DNA of 62,269 nt, filler included. It is 4 parts of 4 records of this genome, joined end to end, with 100 filler letters (N's around TTAATTAATTAA, not from the genome) between each part and the next. Parts side by side here need not be neighbours in the genome. Positions count along the whole stretch, not along the records: positions 10,865 to 23,496 come from DRR378314_580; 3 more parts are not named here. The stretch is one strand, 5' to 3'. The translations under genes and the position numbers were made by a program. The notes below the pieces were generated by a model. The model was not told where the DNA came from, searched no databases, and worked only from the letters and a program-made list of their open reading frames with translations. Each line of letters opens with the position of its first letter. Positions within the stretch are counted from its first letter, which is position 1. Positions 15,604-46,651 of the stretch are shown here, in pieces.

Positions 15604-16698
15604 CTATCCTGCGAGGCGCGCGCCGAGGGTGCGACGGGTGTCCACCGCTTTCGCCAGTTTGCGCAGCAGGATTTCCGTTTCCTCCCAGCCGATGCAACCA
15701 TCGGTCACTGACTGGCCGTAGGTGAGTTTCGACAGATCCCCGTCCTTGGGCAGATCCTGACGGCCATGCACAAGGTGGCTTTCGATCATGAGGCCGGTGA
15801 TGCGGGCCTCGCCCTGCGCCATCTGATCGGCTACATCCGTGAGCACCTCAGGCTGTTTTGCCGGGTCCTTGGCGGAGTTGGCATGGCTTGCGTCGATCAT
15901 CACCTGCGGGCGAATGCCGTCTGCGTCGGCCTTCTGGCAGGCGGCATCGATGCTGGCCGCATCATAGTTGGTGCCACCGCCACCGCGCAGGATGATGTGA
16001 CAATCGGGGTTGCCCGCAGTGGCCGCAATCGCCGCGAGGCCCGAGGGCGCCAGCGCCATGAAATGATGCGGCGTCGCAGCAGAGCGCACCGCGTCGATGG
16101 CGATCTGCACATTGCCGCGGGTGCCGTTCTTGAACCCCACCGGGCAGCTCAGGCCGGAGGCCATCTCGCGGTGGATCTGGCTCTCGGTGGTGCGGGCGCC
16201 AATCGCGGCCCAGCTCACCAGATCGCTAATGTACTGCGGCACCGCCGCATCGAGGAATTCGGTCCCCACCGGCAGGCCCATCTCGCTCAGGTCGAGGCAG
16301 AGTTTGCGCGCGGTCGACAGCCCCTTGTTGATGCGGAAGGAGCCATCGAGGTTGGGATCGTTGATCAGACCCTTCCAGCCCGCGATGGTGCGGGGTTTCT
16401 CGAAGTAGACCCGCATCACGATCTCAAGCTGGTCGCCCAGCTCGGCGCGCAGAGGGGCGAGGCGGCGGGCGTAGTCCAGTGCAGCCTCTGGGTCGTGGAT
16501 GGAACAGGGGCCAACCACCACGACCAGCCGGTCGTCCGCGCCATGCAGGATCTCTTGAATGCTGGCGCGGGATTTCAAAACGGTGTCGCGCGCAGCGTCG
16601 GTGAGCGGATGCTTCACCGCGAGGGCTTCGGGGCAGATCAATTCCTGCATATCGGTAATCCGGAGGTCATTGGTGGGAGTCTGGGACAGGGTGGTCAT
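15604..16698 (-). CDS. aroG: Class I 3-deoxy-7-phosphoheptulonate (DAHP) synthase
   Basis: GPCSIHD, MRVYFEKPRT, GARTTESQIHREMASGLSCPVGFKNGT, DASHANS, YGQSVTDGCIGW; start MTTLSQ follows AAAGGA. Confidence 0.95.
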   Translation of the reverse strand: MTTLSQTPTNDLRITDMQELICPEALAVKHPLTDAARDTVLKSRASIQEILHGADDRLVVVVGPCSIHDPEAALDYARRLAPLRAELGDQLEIVMRVYFEKPRTIAGWKGLINDPNLDGSFRINKGLSTARKLCLDLSEMGLPVGTEFLDAAVPQYISDLVSWAAIGARTTESQIHREMASGLSCPVGFKNGTRGNVQIAIDAVRSAATPHHFMALAPSGLAAIAATAGNPDCHIILRGGGGTNYDAASIDAACQKADADGIRPQVMIDASHANSAKDPAKQPEVLTDVADQMAQGEARITGLMIESHLVHGRQDLPKDGDLSKLTYGQSVTDGCIGWEETEILLRKLAKAVDTRRTLGARLAG

Positions 16699-16744
16699 GG
16701 GCGTGGATCCTTTGGCGGGTGCCCCTGTCGGACCTCTGGACAAC

Positions 16745-16774
16745 AAAAAACCGCCCTTGGTCCCGGGGCGGTTT
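16745..16774 (-). terminator. Intrinsic terminator of the aroG leader (attenuator)
   Basis: Minus strand AAACCGCCC-CGGGACCAA-GGGCGGTTT followed by a U tract, between the leader ORF and the aroG start. Confidence 0.88.
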
Positions 16775-16807
16775 GGTGCGGTATTCTGGTGTTTCTGTCA
16801 GTTCAAT

Positions 16808-16885
16808 TCAGAAACGCGAAGACCCTCCGTCCGCCATGTGGCGCGGATAAAAGTAATACCAAAACTGGGCGAACTGTTGGGTCAT
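16808..16885 (-). CDS. Aromatic-rich leader peptide MTQQFAQFWYYFYPRHMADGGSSRF (25 aa)
   Basis: Minus strand ATG ACC CAA CAG TTC GCC CAG TTT TGG TAT TAC TTT TAT CCG...TTC TGA; six consecutive aromatic codons. Confidence 0.88.
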   Translation of the reverse strand: MTQQFAQFWYYFYPRHMADGGSSRF

Positions 16886-16892
16886 AGGCCGG

Positions 16893-16921
16893 ACGCTAGC
16901 GGAGTTTCCTACATCTGTCAC
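16893..16921 (-). promoter_or_regulatory. Sigma70-like promoter for the leader (GTGACA-17-TAGCGT), implying a leaderless transcript
   Basis: The -10 ends 7 nt before the leader ATG and there is no SD sequence. Confidence 0.55.
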
Positions 16922-16998
16922 CCTGAAAAAACGTCCCGCTCGTCAACGACCCGCTCCCCAATGGAAGGACCGCGCTCCTCCGGCCCATGCCTGTGCCC

Positions 16999-19404
16999 TC
17001 AGAACTCCTGCCAGATATCGACAGCGGTCGCACCGGCGGAAATTGGAACGGGCACGGAACTGCCCGGCTCCATTGGGCCATGGGCGGTCGGCGCGAGGTG
17101 CTGGGCCTCGTCTTCCGGCTGCGCCGGTTCACGTGTGGTGATGTTGCTGGCATCCACTTTGAAGTAGGCGACAATCTCCGACAGCTTGCTCGCATCGGAG
17201 TTCAGCAAATGCCCCGCCGCAGTGGATTGCTCTACCATCGCGGCATTCTGCTGCGTCACTTGGTCAAGCTGGGACATGCCGGTGTTGATTTCGTCGAGGC
17301 CGGTGGATTGCTCTGCGGCGCCATCGGCAATACCCGACATCAGCTGCGAAATCTGGTTCACCCGGCTAGCAATCGACTGCAACGCCTCACCCGCGCGGCC
17401 GACAAGATCCACGCCCTGTTCGACTTGTTTGGAACTGGATCCGATCAAGGTCTTGATCTCCATCGCCGCACCGGATGAGCGCTGTGCCAGTCCCCGCACC
17501 TCGGACGCAACGACCGCGAAGCCGCGCCCGGCTTCGCCAGCCCGCGCGGCTTCAACACCGGCGTTCAACGCCAGCAGGTTGGTCTGAAAGGCGATATCGT
17601 CGATGACCGAGATGATCTGCGAAATCTGGTTGGAGCTGTCTTCGATCCCGCTCATGGCCGTGACCGCGTTCTGTACCACTTCGCCGCTGCTTTCTGCATC
17701 CTCTCGGGCCTCCCGCACGGTGTTTTCCACATCACGTGCGCCGTCTGCCGCGTTGCGCACACTTGCGGTCAACTCGTCGATCGCGGCGGCGGTCTGTTCG
17801 AGCGTCGCCGCCTGCGCCTCTGTTCGCTGCGACAGATCATCCGAGGCCTGACTGATTTCCGAGGCCCCGTTTCGAATCGAGGAGGTCGACTCGACAACCT
17901 GCATCACGGTGGCATTCAGCGTATTGATCGATCCGTTGAAATCCGTACGCAGCGCCTCGTATTCTGCTGGGAAGGCTTCGTCGATCTGCACGGTAAGATC
18001 GCCCTCCGACAACCGCGACAAGCGAGCACTGAGCACCTGAACCACGGTCTTCAGCTCCGCGTCCTTGCCTTCGGCTTTCATCAGCTCTGCTTCCTGCAAC
18101 TTGACCAGCTCATCGCGGAATACCTCCAGCGCACGCGCCATTTCTCCGACCTCGTCGCCACGGTTCTGGCCGGTGACAACTACCGCATTGTTGCCTGCAG
18201 CCAGCCCATTCATCGACGTGGTGATGCCCTGAATGGCCCGGGACAGGCTCCCGCCCACCCAGAGCGAAAGAAGCAGACCAACCAGAACAGCGGCCCCGAT
18301 CACGATAGGAATTTCCCAACGCGTCTCGGTGGAAATCTGATCATTGCTGTTCTGGCGTGCCGTCATCAGCGCTTCTTCCTCGGCCTGAAACTCCGTCAGG
18401 AGGGCTCGGAAGGCGTCAAAATAGGTTTTGCCATGCCCCTCGCCGACCCAATCCGCCATGTCATCCATGGTTGCAGAATCACCGATTTCGCGGCGCATCT
18501 CCAGCGTTGGCTCGACCACAGTCGACCGCCAGTCAGAGATGATCTCACGGATCAGACCTAACCGGCTTTCCTCCTTCGGAATTCCGGCAGATGCAGCCAT
18601 AAGTTCCGTATGCAGATCATCAAAGCGCGCAGCGCCGTTAGAATAAGGCTCCAGAAAGGCCTCTTCACCCGCAAGAAGAAACCCGCGCATCCCGGTTTCC
18701 ATGTCCACTGCGGCCTCCAACAGCGCCTTGGCCGCGATGATGCCCCGATACGCCCGTTCGACGGCGCGCAGGCCCTGATCGAGTGCATTCGGTTGCACCT
18801 CTCCCGATGCAACAAGCGCAGTGAAGGCCTGTCGCTGGTCCGCAAGATCCTGTGTCTGATCCGCGATATAGGCGTCGATCTCCGCCCGGAACTGATCAAA
18901 GTAGACTTTGCCCTTGGCCTGTTTGATTTCATCCGCCATGTCATTCATCGTCAGCGCATCACCAATCTTTTGCCGCATAGAGATGGCCTCCTCGGCAACA
19001 TGGGTTTGCCAGTCTCGCAACATCATTTCAGCTTCATCGAGACGTGCCACTTGTGCCGGATTGTCGCTGACCGTGTCCCGCAGCGATGATAACGTAGAAA
19101 AAGCACGTTCTTTACCGGCGTGATAAGGGGCGAGGTATTGATCCTTGCCGGCAAGCTCGTAGCCCCGCAGCCCGGTCTCCATGTTCACGGCAGAGGCCAT
19201 GATCGTTTGAGCCTCGGTCAACACGGGTTGGGTGTGCCTCACCCATTTGTTGCTCTCCTCCATCTTGAGCAAATTGACCTCGACCAGAACACCGACTCCG
19301 ATCATCAGTACCAGTGGCGCAAACGAGGCCAGAAGCACCTTCGGTCTGGTCTTGAGATTCAAAATGGAGAAGCGCCTCCGAACGCTATTGCGACGTGAAG
19401 TCAT
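16999..19404 (-). CDS. Methyl-accepting chemotaxis protein with two tandem CHASE3-like sensor domains
   Basis: TM1, duplicated METG(L/M)RG..LAG..PY motif, TM2, [39 protein letters not shown]-terminal IWQEF pentapeptide. Confidence 0.93.
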
Positions 19405-19632
19405 GACACGGCCCCTTCGACTGACACTAGAAAACAGGCCTCGCACTAGAATGCCGCATCCTTGCCTGAACCTTTCCAAATTCTACCGCTAACGTGGTTT
19501 TCACGAAAACATGCGATATTTACGATCTTTTGGCGCCCTCGTCGCGACCTGAACGCGAGGCTGCACCGAAATCGCCGTGCTGGACGTGGCGCCCGTTACC
19601 GCTATCCTTCACGGCAAACGAGGAGGGTTTTC

Positions 19633-41983: not shown

Positions 41984-44581
41984 ATGACCAATAGCGAACC
42001 GAGAGCCGGGGATACTATCGACAGCAACAAGGTTGCAGAGGTTCTTCAGACCGAAACCGGTGGAAGAGCTGCGACTGGTACTGCTGCAAAGATACTGTTT
42101 GTTGTTCCCCTGCTTTGGTCCCTCTTTCAGCTATGGATAGCATCACCGCTGCCCTATATCGTCGAGTTCGGTGTTTTTAACTCGACCGAAGCAAGATCCA
42201 TTCATCTTGCCTTTGCCGCGTTTCTCGCTTTTGCGGCTTACCCAATGATTCGTGGCAGGAATGTCGACCATGTACCGGTCTACGACTGGATTCTTGCCCT
42301 TGCCGCTGCTTTTGCAGCCTCTTATCTTTACGTCTTTTATGATCAGCTTGCGACGCGACCGGGCTCTCCCATAACCCAGGACCTTATCGTGGCCCTTGGT
42401 GGTCTGGTTCTGCTTTTGGAGGCGACCCGCCGTGCTCTGGGGCTGCCGCTGACCATTGTGGCTGGTGTGTTTCTTATCTACGCGCTGGCCGGCCCCTATA
42501 TGCCGGACGTTATCTCCCACAAAGGGGCAAGTCTGAGCAAGCTGTCGTCCCACATGTGGTTGGGAACGGAAGGTGTGTTTGGCGTCGCCCTCGGGGTTTC
42601 GACCAGTTTTGTCTTCCTGTTCGTGCTATTTGGCGCGTTGCTGGAACGGGCAGGGGCGGGTAACTACTTTATCCAGGTTGCCTACGCCATGCTTGGGCAT
42701 ATGCGTGGCGGTCCCGCCAAGGCTGCGGTAGTGTCCAGCGGCTTGAGTGGTGTGATTTCGGGTTCGTCCATCGCCAACGTGGTGACGACTGGCACCTTTA
42801 CCATCCCCCTCATGAAGCGGGTTGGTTTTCCCGCCACCAAGGCGGGTGCTGTTGAAGTGGCTGCGTCCACCAACGGCCAGTTAACGCCCCCCATCATGGG
42901 TGCGGCGGCCTTCCTGATGGTCGAGTATGTGGGTATTTCTTACCTGGAAGTGATCAAGCACGCCATCCTGCCTGCGCTGATTTCCTACGTGGCACTGATC
43001 TACATTGTTCACCTTGAGGCGTGCAAGCTCAAGATGAAGGGTATTGAACGTCCAAACCGGCCGACGCTGGCCCAGCGCATGCTGAACTGGGTTGTCATTC
43101 TGATTGGCCTGAGTGCTCTCACATTTGTTGTCTACTACGGCATTGGCTGGTTAAAGGTGCTTCTGGGTGAAGCGGCTGTATGGGTTCTTGGGCCCCTGTT
43201 GCTGCTCATTTATATTGGACTGGTTTGGTATTCCACCCGCTTTCCAGAGCTGGAGCAGGATGACCCTGAATCCTCAATGGATACGCTCCCGGAGGTAGGG
43301 CCCACGGTGAAAACCGGCCTTTACTTCCTGCTGCCCGTAGTCGTCCTGGTGTGGTGCCTGACAGTGGAGCGGTTCTCGCCTCAGCTGTCGGCATTCTGGG
43401 CGACCATGTTCATGGTGTTTATCGTTATTACCCAGCAACCATTGAAGGCCTTTTTCCGCAAGCGTGGGAATTTCCTTTCCGAGACAAAAACCGGCTTTGT
43501 TGACCTGACGCTGTCGCTGGTCACCGGTGCGCGCAACATGGTTGGTATCGGCGTGGCGACGGCTACGGCTGGTATCGTGGTCGGTACGGTCACGTTGACC
43601 GGCATTGGCCTGGTGATGACCCAGTTCGTGGAATTCATTTCAGGCGGTAACCTGTTGTTAATGCTGATTTTCACCGCGATTATCAGCCTGATTCTCGGGA
43701 TGGGGTTGCCGACAACGGCAAACTATATCGTCGTTTCTACATTGATGGCGCCCGTGATTGTGACCCTGGGTGCGCAAAGTGGGCTTCTGGTTCCACTTAT
43801 CGCTGTGCACCTGTTCGTGTTCTACTTCGGCATACTGGCGGATGATACGCCGCCCGTTGGGTTGGCCGCCTACGCGGCGGCGGCTATCTCGGGTGCCGAC
43901 CCGATACGAACGGGCGTGCAAGGTTTTACGTACGATATCCGCACGGCGATCCTGCCATTCATGTTCATCTTCAACACTCAGTTGTTGTTGATCGGGCTGA
44001 CAGGCTGGCTGGATTTACTGGTTACTATTGCCAGCGCAGTAACGGCCATGCTGGTTTTCTCTGCCGCTACCCAAGGCTATTGGTTTACCAAGAGCTATAA
44101 GTGGGAGTCAGCGCTGTTGCTCCTGATCACCTTTACCCTGTTCCGCCCCGGCTACTGGTGGGATATGGTCTACCCGGCAACGCAGGATCGTCCGGGAACC
44201 GAGGTGGTTGAGCACGTTGAGCGGATCCCGGCCGGTGAGTCTATTGTGCTTCAGGCCTCTGGTATGTCGCTCAGTGGTGATGAGGTGTCTACCTACCTGA
44301 GCCTGGAGCTGCCAGCTGCGGAATCTCCAGAGGCCCGGCTGGCAAATGCCGGCCTTGAGTTGTCCCGTCAGGACGACACGATGGTTGTGGATTTTGTCGG
44401 TTATGGCAGTGCCGCCGAAGACGCTGGCATCAGCTTCGGTTGGACGATTGATGCGGTCCAGGTTGAAAATGAGCGTCCACCCAAAGAACTCATGTTCATA
44501 CCCGCACTCATACTTCTTGGTCTTGTGGCCTTTGGCCAACTGCGGCGGCGAACGCCTGAAGAAGCCAGCGCTTACGGCTGA
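41984..44581 (+). CDS. TRAP transporter fused (4TM/12TM) permease
   Basis: RGGPAKAAVVSS, GSSIANVVTTGTFTIP, LGMGLPTTANY, DTPPVGLAA. Confidence 0.93.
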   Translation: MTNSEPRAGDTIDSNKVAEVLQTETGGRAATGTAAKILFVVPLLWSLFQLWIASPLPYIVEFGVFNSTEARSIHLAFAAFLAFAAYPMIRGRNVDHVPVYDWILALAAAFAASYLYVFYDQLATRPGSPITQDLIVALGGLVLLLEATRRALGLPLTIVAGVFLIYALAGPYMPDVISHKGASLSKLSSHMWLGTEGVFGVALGVSTSFVFLFVLFGALLERAGAGNYFIQVAYAMLGHMRGGPAKAAVVSSGLSGVISGSSIANVVTTGTFTIPLMKRVGFPATKAGAVEVAASTNGQLTPPIMGAAAFLMVEYVGISYLEVIKHAILPALISYVALIYIVHLEACKLKMKGIERPNRPTLAQRMLNWVVILIGLSALTFVVYYGIGWLKVLLGEAAVWVLGPLLLLIYIGLVWYSTRFPELEQDDPESSMDTLPEVGPTVKTGLYFLLPVVVLVWCLTVERFSPQLSAFWATMFMVFIVITQQPLKAFFRKRGNFLSETKTGFVDLTLSLVTGARNMVGIGVATATAGIVVGTVTLTGIGLVMTQFVEFISGGNLLLMLIFTAIISLILGMGLPTTANYIVVSTLMAPVIVTLGAQSGLLVPLIAVHLFVFYFGILADDTPPVGLAAYAAAAISGADPIRTGVQGFTYDIRTAILPFMFIFNTQLLLIGLTGWLDLLVTIASAVTAMLVFSAATQGYWFTKSYKWESALLLLITFTLFRPGYWWDMVYPATQDRPGTEVVEHVERIPAGESIVLQASGMSLSGDEVSTYLSLELPAAESPEARLANAGLELSRQDDTMVVDFVGYGSAAEDAGISFGWTIDAVQVENERPPKELMFIPALILLGLVAFGQLRRRTPEEASAYG

Positions 44582-44594
44582 CCGCTGTATCCTG

Positions 44595-44624
44595 AAGCCC
44601 GGCATTAACCTGCCGGGCTTTTTT
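44595..44624 (+). terminator. Intrinsic terminator after the TRAP operon
   Basis: AAGCCCGGCA-TTAACC-TGCCGGGCTT-TTTT. Confidence 0.88.
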
Positions 44625-44725: not shown

Positions 44726-46651
44726 ATGCCCGTTGTTACCCTGCCGGATGGCAGTCACCGCAGTTTTGCTGAATCTGTTACCGTTCACGATGTCGCCGCA
44801 GACATTGGTGCCGGGCTTGCCAAGGCCGCCATTGCCGGCCGTGTGAATGGCAAGTTGGTCGATACCAGTTTCCCGATCGAAGAAGACGCTGAGCTCGCCA
44901 TTGTCACCGAGCGTGATGAAGACGGCGTCGACATTATCCGTCACTCCACGGCACACCTGCTCGCCATGGCTGTGAAGGAACTGTTTCCTTCCGCTCAGGT
45001 GACCATCGGCCCGGTTGTGGATAACGGGTTCTATTACGATTTCAAATTCGACCGGCCATTCACCAATGAAGACCTGAGCCGGATCGAAAAGCGCATGGAA
45101 GAACTGGCAAAGCAGGATATCCCGGTGTCCCGCTCGGTCATGTCCCGCGACGAGGCCGTTCGCCTGTTTGATGAGATGGGCGAGGAATATAAGGTCCGCA
45201 TCATTGAGGACATTCCCGGGGAAGAGGACCTGTCCTTTTACCGCCAGGGTGAGTTTATCGACCTCTGTCGTGGTCCTCATGTGCCTAACACCGGCAAGCT
45301 CAAGGCCTTCAAACTGACCAAGGTTGCCGGTGCATACTGGCGCGGTGATACCAGCAACGAGCAGTTGCAGCGCGTGTATGGCACGGCCTGGGGCAACAAG
45401 AAAGACCTTAAGGCGTACCTGCATCGCCTTGAAGAAGCCGAAAAGCGCGATCACCGTAAGATCGGCAAAAAGCTGAGTCTGTTCCACATGCAGGAAGAGG
45501 CTCCGGGCATGGTCTTCTGGCATCCGGACGGCTGGTCCCTGTATCAGGAGATTGAGCAGTACATGCGTCGCAAGCAGCATGAACATGACTACCAGGAAAT
45601 CAAGACTCCGCAGGTGGTTTCCAGGGCGCTTTGGGAAAAGTCAGGGCACTGGGACAAGTTCAAGGACGACATGTTCACCACCGAGTCTGAGAAACACGAC
45701 TACGCCATTAAGCCCATGAACTGCCCGTGCCATGTGCAGGTGTTCAATCAGGGACTGAAGAGTTATAAGGACCTGCCGCTGCGTCTGGCGGAGTTCGGCT
45801 CCTGCCACCGCAACGAGGCATCCGGTGCGCTGCACGGTCTGATGCGGGTACGCGGGTTTACCCAGGATGATGCGCACATCTTCTGTGAAGAGGATGCCAT
45901 TCAGCAGGAAGTGTCCGACTTTATCGGCATGCTCCACGAGATCTACGCGGATTTCGGGTTTACGGAGATTCTCTACAAGCTCTCCACCCGTCCGGAAAAG
46001 CGGGTTGGCTCAGACGAAGTCTGGGACAAGGCGGAAGCCGCGTTGGAGGAAGCTCTGAACCGGGAAGGCGTTGATTGGGAACTTTTACCCGGTGAGGGCG
46101 CGTTTTATGGCCCGAAAATCGAGTTTTCACTGAAAGACTGCATCGGTCGGGTGTGGCAATGTGGTACCATTCAGGTCGATTTTTCCATGCCGGGGCGTCT
46201 GGGAGCCCAATATGTGGCGGACAACTCCGAGCGTAAGACGCCGGTGATGTTGCACAGGGCGGTTCTGGGTTCGTTCGAGCGCTTTATTGGTATTCTCATC
46301 GAGGAATACGAGGGAGCGTTCCCGACATGGTTGGCGCCAACGCAGATCGCGGTGCTCAATATTACCGACAATCAGCGTGATTATTGCCAGAATCTTGCGA
46401 AAAAGTGGGATTCCCTTGGCTATAGGGTTAATGCTGACTTGAGAAACGAGAAGATCGGCTTTAAAATCCGCGAGCATACTATTAACAAAGTTCCCTTCCT
46501 TGTTGTTATCGGCGACAAAGAAGTTGAAAACAACGCTGTTGCGGTGAGAACCCGCAAGGGTGAGGATCTGGGAACTTTATCGCTGGAAGCGTTTGAGCAG
46601 CTAATGGCTGATGAAATCAATCGCAAAGGCAGAACCAAAACGGAGATCTGA
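44726..46651 (+). CDS. thrS: Threonyl-tRNA synthetase
   Basis: [38 protein letters not shown]. Confidence 0.98.

What the first reader, a model, noticed from the sequence alone, without database searches (positions are those of the whole stretch)
16745..16921. Phe/Trp/Tyr triple-sensing attenuator upstream of DAHP synthase
Seen (minus strand): promoter-like GTGACA-17-TAGCGT, then 7 nt, then ATG with no SD; the peptide MTQQFAQFWYYFYPRHMADGGSSRF* has six consecutive aromatic codons. A hairpin TCCGC..GCGGA follows directly, and its GGCGG can alternatively pair with the CCGCC 5' arm of the U-tailed terminator 47 nt before the aroG ATG. Known: trp/phe/his attenuators work this way and usually sense one amino acid; the S. 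meliloti trpE(G) leader is leaderless. Inference: stalling on any of F, W or Y frees GGCGG to form the antiterminator, an OR gate over all three end products at the first shikimate step. The terminated ~140-nt RNA and the peptide might also act in trans. I cannot confirm that this is undescribed.
Basis: partly seen in the sequence, partly recalled or inferred. Interest (0 to 1): 0.88.

Follow-up and report, generated by a model that had tools for sequence, protein, structure and literature searches.

The report
Aromatic leader-peptide attenuator before DAHP synthase
A short upstream reading frame packed with phenylalanine, tryptophan and tyrosine codons, followed by a terminator, most likely switches the first gene of aromatic amino acid synthesis on when those amino acids run short; it is a classic mechanism, but this widespread version seems not to be catalogued.

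Summary
On the minus strand, a 25-codon ORF (16885-16808, MTQQFAQFWYYFYPRHMADGGSSRF) with six consecutive aromatic codons is followed by a U-tailed hairpin (16774-16745), 46 nt before a class I-alpha DAHP synthase gene.

It is not chance. 40 of 80 loci encoding relatives of this enzyme carry the same arrangement: an ATG-uORF with an F/W/Y run, then a CCGCC..GGCGG-Un terminator. These loci come from Alpha-, Beta- and Gammaproteobacteria. An [FWY]{4,} uORF occurs in 36 of 80 upstream regions, against 3 of 3238 control windows.

The only near-invariant block outside the terminator is GGCGG inside the uORF. It pairs with the terminator's 5' arm.

Folding with a ribosome parked on codons 6-13 gives this antiterminator. 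Beyond codon 14 it does not form.

The best reading is a classical ribosome-mediated transcription attenuator, probably leaderless, that senses Phe/Tyr and probably Trp. No experiment supports function, and the separate response to each amino acid is inferred.

No Rfam 15 family reaches threshold, and I found no description in the searchable literature. Analogous attenuators before DAHP synthase genes are known in Corynebacterium and proposed in Acholeplasma. Verdict: new member of a known kind.

The parts
16916..16921 (-). -35-like hexamer GTGACA
   Evidence: The same GTGACA, 17-nt spacer, -10-like hexamer and 6-7 nt to the ATG recur in the alphaproteobacterial leaders. The generic scanner did not call it.
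16893..16898 (-). -10-like hexamer TAGCGT, ending 7 nt before the leader ATG (predicted leaderless or near-leaderless transcript)
   Evidence: A -10-like hexamer ends 6-9 nt before the ATG in 24 of 41 leaders. There are no TSS data.
16808..16885 (-). Leader ORF, 25 codons plus TGA: MTQQFAQFWYYFYPRHMADGGSSRF
   Evidence: Homologous uORFs occur in 40 of 80 loci, and in 4 of 7 further CM-found loci by my motif scan.
16847..16864 (-). Run of six aromatic codons UUU UGG UAU UAC UUU UAU (F8 W9 Y10 Y11 F12 Y13): the proposed stall sites
   Evidence: 39 of 45 leaders contain F, W and Y. Modelled stalls at codons 6-13 free segment 2.
16868..16874 (-). Segment 1 (GUUCGCC). It pairs with segment 2 in the unconstrained fold (anti-antiterminator).
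   Evidence: The isolated segment 1:2 hairpin folds at -10.5 kcal/mol. In alignment A1 this pairing is formed in 75.5% of cells, against 32-62% when slid. This is moderate support.
16829..16835 (-). Segment 2 (GGCGGAC; core GGCGG 16835-16831). It pairs alternatively with segment 1 or with the terminator 5' arm.
   Evidence: It is the near-invariant block in A1. The core 5 bp with segment 3 are paired in 37-39 of 39 distinct rows. The motif is read in all three frames among homologues, 35/3/3, so the constraint is on the RNA.
16791..16815 (-). Local hairpin GUUUCUG/CAGAAAC that encloses the leader stop codon, inside the antiterminator loop
   Evidence: window fold. I did not examine its conservation.
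16766..16774 (-). Segment 3, the terminator 5' arm AAACCGCCC (core CCGCC 16771-16767)
16745..16756 (-). Segment 4, the terminator 3' arm GGGCGG(UUU) with the U6 tract (16750-16745)
   Evidence: RNAalifold gives a 9-bp consensus terminator with compensatory AU/GC changes (AU:23, GC:17 at columns 131/156).
15604..16698 (-). Regulated gene: class I-alpha DAHP synthase (aroF/G/H type), 364 aa
   Evidence: TIGR00034 at 515 bits (cut-off 173) and PRK12755 at 520 bits (cut-off 343).

Best explanation
This is a classical ribosome-mediated (leader-peptide) transcription attenuator controlling a class I-alpha DAHP synthase gene.

Transcription probably starts at or just before the leader AUG.

When Phe-, Tyr- and Trp-tRNAs are well charged, the ribosome runs through the aromatic codons and over segment 2 (GGCGG). 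Alternatively, segment 2 is held by segment 1. Either way the CCGCC 5' arm stays free, the terminator hairpin forms, and transcription stops at the U-tract near 16745-16750.

When charging of an aromatic tRNA is low, the ribosome stalls within codons 8-13. Segment 1 is covered and segment 2 stays exposed, so segment 2 pairs with the terminator's 5' arm as that arm emerges. This antiterminator lets RNA polymerase read into aroG.

Shown here: the sequence elements, their conservation with the gene, and the alternative pairings in silico.

Inferred: that termination happens, that the uORF is translated, the leaderless start, and the response to each of the three amino acids.
For: 1. Anatomy in the window.

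2. Conservation. 40 of 80 loci of AroG relatives have an ATG-uORF with an aromatic run plus a CCGCC..GGCGG-Un terminator. These loci come from Alpha-, Beta- and Gammaproteobacteria. The enrichment is 36 of 80 against 3 of 3238 control windows.

3. The element travels with the gene.
- A covariance model built from the 41 leaders finds one full-length hit per carrier genome among the 5 genomes searched by handle.
- Of the 9 model hits examined, 7 strong ones lie directly upstream of an AroG homologue. The 2 weak ones, L097 and L098, do not.
- On a quick AroG tree, leader presence needs 7 changes, against a shuffled mean of 29.5 (0 of 500 shuffles as low).

4. RNA-level constraint.
- GGCGG in the uORF is the only near-invariant block outside the terminator. 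It is read in three different frames among homologues.
- Its 5 core pairs with the terminator 5' arm form in 37-39 of 39 distinct rows. The whole 8-pair helix is paired in 85.5% of cells, against 17-56% when slid.
- L031 changes segments 2, 3 and 4 together: AGCGG / CCGCU / AGCGG.

5. Folding of 39 distinct leaders: the terminator appears in the free MFE in 37, and the segment 2:3 antiterminator appears in the stalled, nascent MFE in 37.

6. In the window, the antiterminator forms only for ribosome A-site positions 6-13 (+10 nt footprint) or 5-12 (+13 nt). This brackets the aromatic run.

7. Codon choice. Leader Phe codons are TTT 99: TTC 26, against 31: 208 in the adjacent aroG genes.

8. A sub-threshold, full-length match to Rfam Phe_leader (27.6 bits, E 0.028).
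Against: - There is no experimental evidence of any kind for termination, uORF translation or a starvation response.
- The window's promoter hexamers are weak, and the generic scanner called none.
- The overall fold is not more stable than shuffles (z = -1.29).
- In the stalled full-length fold the terminator still wins thermodynamically in 34 of 39 leaders, so antitermination must be kinetic. From memory, the same holds for the E. coli trp leader.
- The shuffle control is only moderately discriminating. Segment 3 finds an upstream partner in 51% of shuffles, against 39 of 39 real sequences.
- Covariation is sparse because segments 2, 3 and 4 are almost invariant. Support for the segment 1:2 pairing is modest (25 of 39).
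- The sequences are phylogenetically related, so counts and the Fisher test are not independent samples.
- 40 of the 80 related loci lack the element.
Confidence: 0.85

Rival explanations
1. Same attenuator, but effectively a Phe/Tyr sensor. The single Trp codon contributes little, so there is no true three-way OR gate.
For: - 8 of 45 leaders lack Trp in the aromatic run, and most of the others have a single UGG.
- F and Y codons dominate: 146 F and 118 Y against 44 W over the 45 leaders.
- In C. glutamicum aroR (Phe-Tyr-Phe), a review reports derepression under Phe limitation but no effect of Tyr. Codon presence therefore does not guarantee sensing (PMC11802643, passages).
Against: - A UGG is kept inside the run in 37 of 45 leaders, across three classes.
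- In the window, a modelled stall at W9 gives the antiterminator just as stalls at F and Y do.
Confidence: 0.3
2. An independent small gene or small RNA with its own terminator, whose product acts elsewhere. aroG would be transcribed from a separate promoter and not be controlled by read-through.
For: - The predicted product would be a discrete transcript of about 140 nt.
- In S. meliloti the leaderless trp attenuator RNA and its peptide have trans functions (PMC6614838, abstract and passages; PMC10117765, passages).
Against: - Only 8-131 nt separate the U-tract from the aroG start, and 24-28 nt in the Bradyrhizobium and Mesorhizobium loci. That leaves little room for a promoter.
- The element is found only next to aroG homologues: 7 of 7 strong CM hits.
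- Conservation downstream of the aromatic run is at the RNA level, not the peptide level, since the motif is read in three frames.
- A trans role would add to cis attenuation rather than replace it.
Confidence: 0.05
3. Nascent-peptide arrest, TnaC-like (recalled from memory): the aromatic peptide stalls the ribosome in response to a free amino acid rather than to tRNA charging.
For: The uORF is short and aromatic-rich, and a proline often follows the run.
Against: - The peptide sequence is not conserved beyond its aromatic composition. Run order and length vary, and the tail is read in different frames.
- The geometry fits classical hunger-codon stalling.
Confidence: 0.03

Closest known systems
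E. coli pheA leader (pheL; Rfam RF01859 Phe_leader)
   Same: A leader ORF with a run of aromatic (Phe) codons, alternative hairpins and an intrinsic terminator. The window gives a full-length but sub-threshold match (27.6 bits, E 0.028).
   Different: - The score is below Rfam's gathering score of 55, and none of 20 related loci reaches it.
- The regulated gene is DAHP synthase, not pheA.
- The codons are mixed F/W/Y.
- The start is probably leaderless.
C. glutamicum aroR-aroF attenuator (Neshat et al. 2014; seen only through passages of the review PMC11802643; the original is not held)
   Same: A leader peptide with aromatic codons (Phe-Tyr-Phe) upstream of an operon containing a DAHP synthase gene, regulated by ribosome stalling.
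   Different: - A different phylum.
- A shorter aromatic motif without Trp.
- Reported to respond to Phe but not to Tyr.
- I had no sequence in hand, so homology was not tested.
uORFC-13-1 motif upstream of aroF in Acholeplasma (Brewer et al. 2021, PMC8632094, passages)
   Same: A candidate uORF with Phe codons next to an intrinsic terminator, upstream of a 3-deoxy-7-phosphoheptulonate synthase gene.
   Different: - Found in Acholeplasma and environmental sequences only, with 24 representatives.
- Has an RBS and at least one Phe codon, according to the authors.
- Not compared by sequence here. The paper's supplements are closed.
S. meliloti trpL / rnTrpL leaderless trp attenuator
   Same: An attenuator whose small transcript starts at the AUG of the leader ORF (PMC10117765, passages). 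The window and 23 other leaders have a -10-like hexamer ending 6-9 nt before the ATG.
   Different: - It senses Trp only and controls trpE(G).
- Its leaderless start and trans functions were shown experimentally there (PMC6614838). Nothing of the kind is shown here.
Multivalent attenuators (E. coli ilvGMEDA and thr leaders; recalled from memory, not from a call)
   Same: One leader carries codons for several end products, so shortage of any one of them can relieve termination.
   Different: They concern branched-chain amino acids or Thr/Ile, not the three aromatic amino acids.

Membership tests
Classical ribosome-mediated (leader-peptide) transcription attenuators | A short uORF with start and stop codons in the 5' region of a biosynthetic gene | tested here: met
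   The ORF is at 16885-16808. Homologous uORFs occur in 40 of 80 loci.
Classical ribosome-mediated (leader-peptide) transcription attenuators | Clustered codons for the pathway's end-product amino acid(s) | tested here: met
   Six consecutive F/W/Y codons. The enrichment is 36 of 80 against 3 of 3238.
Classical ribosome-mediated (leader-peptide) transcription attenuators | An intrinsic terminator between the uORF and the gene | tested here: met
   A GC-rich 9-bp stem plus U6 at -13.9 kcal/mol. RNAalifold gives a consensus terminator with compensatory changes. Termination itself was not testable.
Classical ribosome-mediated (leader-peptide) transcription attenuators | A mutually exclusive antiterminator that uses the terminator's 5' arm | tested here: met
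   The core pairs form in 37-39 of 39 rows. The antiterminator appears in the stalled nascent MFE in 37 of 39 leaders.
Classical ribosome-mediated (leader-peptide) transcription attenuators | Stalling at the regulatory codons, but not further downstream, leaves the antiterminator strand free | tested here: met
   In the window model, A-site codons 6-13 give the segment 2:3 pairing and codons 14 onward do not. This rests on thermodynamic modelling only.
Classical ribosome-mediated (leader-peptide) transcription attenuators | Read-through rises when the cognate amino acid is limiting | not testable with these tools
   This needs reporter assays or RNA end mapping.
Rfam RF01859 Phe_leader | A score at or above the gathering threshold of 55 bits | tested here: not met
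   The window scores 27.6 bits. No gathering-level hit fell on the leader in 20 related loci.
Rfam RF01859 Phe_leader | Located upstream of pheA | tested here: not met
   The downstream gene is an aroFGH-type DAHP synthase.
Leaderless attenuators of the S. meliloti trpL type | The transcript starts at the A of the leader AUG | tested here: inconclusive
   The promoter-to-ATG spacing is conserved in 24 of 41 leaders and there is no SD, but there are no TSS data. One RNA-library contig of a relative ends 4 nt short of the ATG. Contigs cannot show RNA ends.
Leaderless attenuators of the S. meliloti trpL type | Trans-acting function of the released RNA or peptide | not tested
   No target search was made.
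C. glutamicum aroR-aroF attenuator | Sequence or structure homology of the leader | not tested
   No aroR sequence was available from a tool, and the original paper is not held.

The most novel reading that the evidence does not exclude
A horizontally mobile, self-contained cassette (leaderless promoter, leader, aroG) integrates the charging of three tRNAs. By using only U-starting codons, mostly the wobble-read UUU and UAU, it would also report the state of the i6A37-modified tRNAs (the MiaA link is recalled from memory). The released leaderless RNA of about 140 nt and its aromatic peptide would have trans functions, as shown for S. meliloti rnTrpL and peTrpL.
Probability: 0.1. Interest if true: 0.75.

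Novelty: new member of a known kind. Interest (0 to 1): 0.5.

Why it matters
The enteric TyrR/TrpR paradigm (passages of PMC5343134) does not cover how DAHP synthase expression is controlled in Burkholderia and Paraburkholderia, Xanthomonas and Stenotrophomonas, Bradyrhizobium and Mesorhizobium, or Oxalobacteraceae.

This element offers a concrete, testable mechanism at the entry point of the shikimate pathway in those well-studied genera:
- It is present in 25 of 41 sampled genomes of the Burkholderia family.
- It is present in 10 of 41 sampled genomes of the Xanthomonas family.

It would add an uncurated RNA family to the annotation resources. It is also a natural example of multivalent sensing of all three aromatic amino acids, in a probably leaderless format.

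It is relevant to metabolic engineering of aromatic compounds. Mechanistically it is conventional.

Tried and rejected
- **Whole genome.** None is held for the window, so other DAHP synthase genes and other attenuators in the host could not be counted.
- **Second CM hit in the window.** The hit at 44492-44623(+) scores 18.7 bits. It is the C-terminal coding end of an 865-aa membrane protein plus its terminator, upstream of thrS. It is not an attenuator.
- **Weak CM hits L097 and L098** (about 28 bits) have no AroG homologue nearby. I treated them as false positives.
- **Simple IUPAC pattern** for segments 2, 3 and 4. It found the leader in all 5 genomes but also unrelated GC-rich terminators, so I dropped it in favour of the CM.
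- **RNAalifold on the MAFFT alignment** recovered only the terminator. Segment 1:2 is not aligned well enough across classes, so I counted pairs by hand-set columns instead.
- **Sequencing runs**.
  - Only assembled contigs of relatives were available, at about 90-92% identity in RNA libraries.
  - X17 record 6 (16168-16852), X18 record 13 (16168-16852) and X19 record 18 (16123-16881) bridge the terminator and join the leader ORF to aroG.
  - Contigs cannot show RNA ends, level or strand, and DNA can be present in RNA libraries. This is at most a weak hint of read-through transcripts.
  - The lack of cover upstream of about 16930 is no finding.
- **Literature.**
  - Ten full-text searches gave no description of this proteobacterial element. 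One search looked for six leader-peptide strings and returned 0 papers.
  - Vitreschak 2004, Lopatovskaya 2010 and Neshat 2014 are not held. Panina 2001 and Merino & Yanofsky 2005 were not looked up. Supplements are closed. A prior prediction there cannot be excluded.
  - The Merino attenuator database, as cited in PMC1173090, lists attenuators before Vibrio aroA-I-alpha_Y > tyrA.
  - The Bradyrhizobium TSS paper's main text does not mention the gene (PMC4842269).
- **Careful tree search** did not finish in the time allowed. Only the quick tree is reported.

Full report
**Observation**

All features below are on the minus strand of the window.
- GTGACA is at 16921-16916, followed by a 17-nt spacer, TAGCGT at 16898-16893, 7 nt, and ATG at 16885.
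- No Shine-Dalgarno-like sequence lies within 15 nt of the ATG.
- The ORF 16885-16808 encodes MTQQFAQFWYYFYPRHMADGGSSRF. Codons 8-13 (16864-16847) are UUU UGG UAU UAC UUU UAU.
- A GC-rich hairpin with a U6 tail lies at 16774-16745 (AAACCGCCC, 9-nt loop, GGGCGGUUU; -13.9 kcal/mol).
- The next ORF starts 46 nt after the U-tract, at 16698.
- That ORF is a class I-alpha DAHP synthase: TIGR00034 at 515 bits against a cut-off of 173.
- The gene upstream (16999-19479) is a methyl-accepting chemotaxis protein.

The generic scanners called neither the promoter nor the terminator. The -10 hexamer is weak, and the 9-nt loop exceeds the scanner's limit. The overall MFE of the leader is not exceptional (z = -1.29).

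**Is it more than chance?**

I fetched 80 loci encoding relatives of the enzyme (55-69% identity). Forty of them have the same arrangement: an ATG-initiated uORF of 17-30 codons with an aromatic run, followed by a terminator of the form (G)CCGCC(AG)-loop-(CU)GGCGG(C)-U4-9, 8-131 nt before the aroG start.

The carriers, by record title, are:
- Alphaproteobacteria: Roseovarius, Devosia, Bradyrhizobium, Mesorhizobium.
- Burkholderiales: Burkholderia, Paraburkholderia, Caballeronia, Janthinobacterium, Massilia, Rugamonas, Oxalobacter and others.
- Xanthomonadales: Xanthomonas, Stenotrophomonas, Luteimonas, Pseudoxanthomonas, Dyella.

With a stricter test (an ATG-ORF of 8-45 aa with four or more consecutive F/W/Y), 36 of 80 upstream regions are positive, against 3 of 3238 control 250-nt windows elsewhere in the same loci on both strands.

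The other 40 loci lack the element. They include Enterobacterales, Methylophilaceae and Rhodocyclaceae.

**Distribution**

I built a covariance model (R1) from the 41 leaders. Note that the first row of the alignment lacks the A of the ATG because of my coordinate slip.

Strong full-length hits were found in:

| Sample | Genomes with a strong hit |
|---|---|
| Alphaproteobacteria, class sample | 6 of 151 |
| Gammaproteobacteria in the GTDB sense, class sample | 3 of 151 |
| Family of the Xanthomonas locus | 10 of 41 |
| Family of the Burkholderia locus | 25 of 41 |
| Family of the genome with the closest AroG (G098) | 2 of 41 |

- Each of the 5 genomes searched by handle has a single full-length hit.
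- Of the 9 new hits I examined, the 7 strong ones lie directly upstream of an AroG homologue. The 2 weak ones do not.
- On a quick maximum-likelihood tree of 89 AroG sequences, leader presence is strongly clustered. It needs 7 changes against a shuffled mean of 29.5, and 0 of 500 shuffles are as low.
- Two large leader-bearing groups stand out on that tree: Xanthomonadales plus Alphaproteobacteria (28 of 29 rows) and Burkholderiaceae plus Oxalobacteraceae (16 of 16 rows).

**The RNA switch**

In the 41-sequence alignment, the only near-invariant block outside the terminator is GGCGG, usually CUGGCGG, inside the uORF. This is segment 2; in the window it is at 16835-16831. It has the same sequence as the terminator's 3' arm and is complementary to the 5' arm.

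Evidence for the segment 2:3 pairing:
- Counted on the alignment, the five core pairs form in 37-39 of 39 distinct rows.
- The 8-pair helix is paired in 85.5% of cells, against 17-56% when the partner columns are slid.
- Covariation is sparse because three segments constrain each other. The flanking pair is C-G in 8 rows and U-A in 8.
- Locus L031 changes all three segments together: AGCGG / CCGCU / AGCGG.

The GGCGG motif is read in all three reading frames among homologues, 35/3/3. The apparent conservation of the peptide tail (..LA[DE]xG..) is therefore an RNA constraint.

The terminator itself shows compensatory AU/GC exchange (23/17 at one pair).

**Folding (ViennaRNA)**

Over the 39 distinct leaders:

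| Feature | Leaders |
|---|---|
| Terminator in the unconstrained MFE | 37 |
| Segment 2 paired to a CGCC-type segment 1 upstream of the aromatic run, unconstrained MFE | 25 |
| Antiterminator (2:3) when the RNA is masked as if a ribosome sat on the next-to-last aromatic codon and is folded only up to the terminator loop | 37 |
| Antiterminator still wins once the 3' arm is present | 5 |

Antitermination must therefore be kinetic. From memory, the same holds for the E. coli trp leader.

The control is only moderately discriminating. After dinucleotide shuffling of the intervening region, segment 3 still finds an upstream partner in 51% of shuffles, against 39 of 39 real sequences.

For the window I moved the masked ribosome codon by codon.
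- With the A site on codons 6-13 (+10 nt footprint) or 5-12 (+13 nt), r51-55 pairs with r115-119.
- From codon 14 onward it does not.
- The aromatic run, codons 8-13, thus fills the stall window that yields the antiterminator.

I did not look for it in the other leaders. The segment 1:2 alternative GUUCGCC:GGCGGAC folds at -10.5 kcal/mol, and alignment support for it is modest (75.5% paired against 32-62% slid). A ribosome in the run would disrupt either one.

**Start of the transcript**

- A -10-like hexamer ends 6-9 nt before the leader ATG in 24 of 41 leaders. These are all the alphaproteobacterial ones (mostly GTGACA-17-TAxxxx), the Xanthomonadales (TGnTATCAA/C, an extended -10), and the window.
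- In 14 leaders of Burkholderiaceae and Oxalobacteraceae, a better promoter (TTGCCA or TTGTCA, 17-18 nt, TATAAA or TATAGT) ends 25-38 nt upstream.
- This conserved geometry supports a leaderless or near-leaderless leader mRNA in the window's group. It is inference.
- The precedent is S. meliloti trpL. Its attenuator RNA starts with the AUG and is translated (PMC10117765, passages), and it acts in trans (PMC6614838, abstract and passages).
- Leaderless mRNAs are common in Bradyrhizobium: 192 TSSs lie exactly at start codons (PMC4842269, passage).

**Which amino acids?**

- 39 of 45 leaders contain F, W and Y. In 37 the W lies within the run, usually as a single UGG.
- 8 leaders, mostly Oxalobacteraceae, have only F and Y in the run.
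- Phe is encoded by UUU in 99 of 125 leader codons, against 31 of 239 in the adjacent aroG genes. Tyr UAU is also enriched (54:50 against 75:159). These counts are not phylogenetically independent.
- That shortage of any one amino acid suffices (an OR gate) follows from the mechanism, and from multivalent attenuators recalled from memory (the ilvGMEDA and thr leaders). It is not shown.
- For C. glutamicum aroR, a review reports a response to Phe but not to Tyr (PMC11802643, passages).

**Pathway context**

- Each of five carrier genomes has one class I-alpha enzyme. One genome has two.
- Four of the five also have a class II DAHP synthase. Four of these five genomes were searched with the RNA model (three of them carry the class II gene), and none has a second full-length leader hit.
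- The attenuator therefore controls one isoenzyme, not necessarily all entry into the pathway.
- The window's own genome is not held.

**What is known**

- No Rfam 15 family reaches its gathering score on the window's leader or in 20 related loci. The best match is a sub-threshold one to Phe_leader (27.6 against 55 bits).
- The ten full-text searches listed under Tried and rejected found no description of this proteobacterial element. One of them searched for six leader-peptide strings and returned 0 papers.
- Known analogues exist:
  - aroR-aroF in C. glutamicum.
  - The candidate uORFC-13-1 before aroF in Acholeplasma (PMC8632094).
  - An old hypothesis of Tyr-tRNA-dependent attenuation of E. 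coli aroF, cited in PMC2659441 and PMC8632094.
  - Predicted attenuators before Vibrio aroA-I-alpha_Y > tyrA in Merino's database (PMC1173090).
- Key comparative papers are not held, and supplements are closed. Prior prediction cannot be excluded.

**Sequencing runs**

Only contigs of relatives were available. Three RNA-library contigs bridge the terminator, and one ends 4 nt short of the leader ATG. This is a weak hint at most.

**Verdict**

This is a real, conserved element. It is very probably a classical leader-peptide transcription attenuator of a DAHP synthase gene that senses aromatic aminoacyl-tRNA supply, and it is probably leaderless in this lineage. It is a new, apparently uncatalogued member of a known kind.

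Noticed in passing
window 15604-16930 versus window 44726-46648: The leader-aroG cassette looks alphaproteobacterial. Its AroG is 76.5% identical to that of locus L094 from the alphaproteobacterial sample, and it falls in a starred clade with a Roseovarius locus. The window's ThrS, by contrast, is closer to Burkholderia (65%) and Xanthomonas (61%) than to three alphaproteobacterial genomes (55-58%). A DNA contig of a close relative (48 differences over about 1.3 kb) diverges from the window just upstream of the -35 box, at about 16930. This suggests horizontal transfer of the promoter-leader-gene unit.
   Followed up: partly
leaders in L001-L070 and window 16808-16885: There is a strong bias for UUU over UUC in the leaders (99:26) compared with the adjacent aroG genes (31:208), in mostly GC-rich genomes. 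It could reflect selection for wobble-read, slower codons or for an unstructured U-rich stretch.
   Followed up: partly
L009, L014, L021, L024, L027, L038, L041 and similar loci, upstream of the leader ATG: Burkholderiaceae and Oxalobacteraceae versions have a near-consensus promoter ending 25-38 nt before the leader ATG, and most have no obvious Shine-Dalgarno sequence. How the uORF is initiated there is unclear.
   Followed up: no
window 44492-44623 (+): A weak full-length hit of the leader model (18.7 bits) is the 3' end of an 865-aa membrane-protein gene plus its terminator, just upstream of thrS. It is a false positive.
   Followed up: yes
G003 contig C5:1598585-1599619: The Burkholderia genome has a second class I-alpha DAHP synthase copy without a leader-model hit, and no class II enzyme.
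   Followed up: partly
L039:4495-4701 (-): A tandem glycine riboswitch (two Rfam RF00504 aptamers) lies about 1 kb downstream of aroG in the Stenotrophomonas locus. It is an ordinary, known element.
   Followed up: no
L075 (Rhodanobacter contig): This is the only row without a detected leader inside the otherwise leader-bearing Xanthomonadales/Alphaproteobacteria AroG clade. It may be a loss, or a variant that my filters missed.
   Followed up: no
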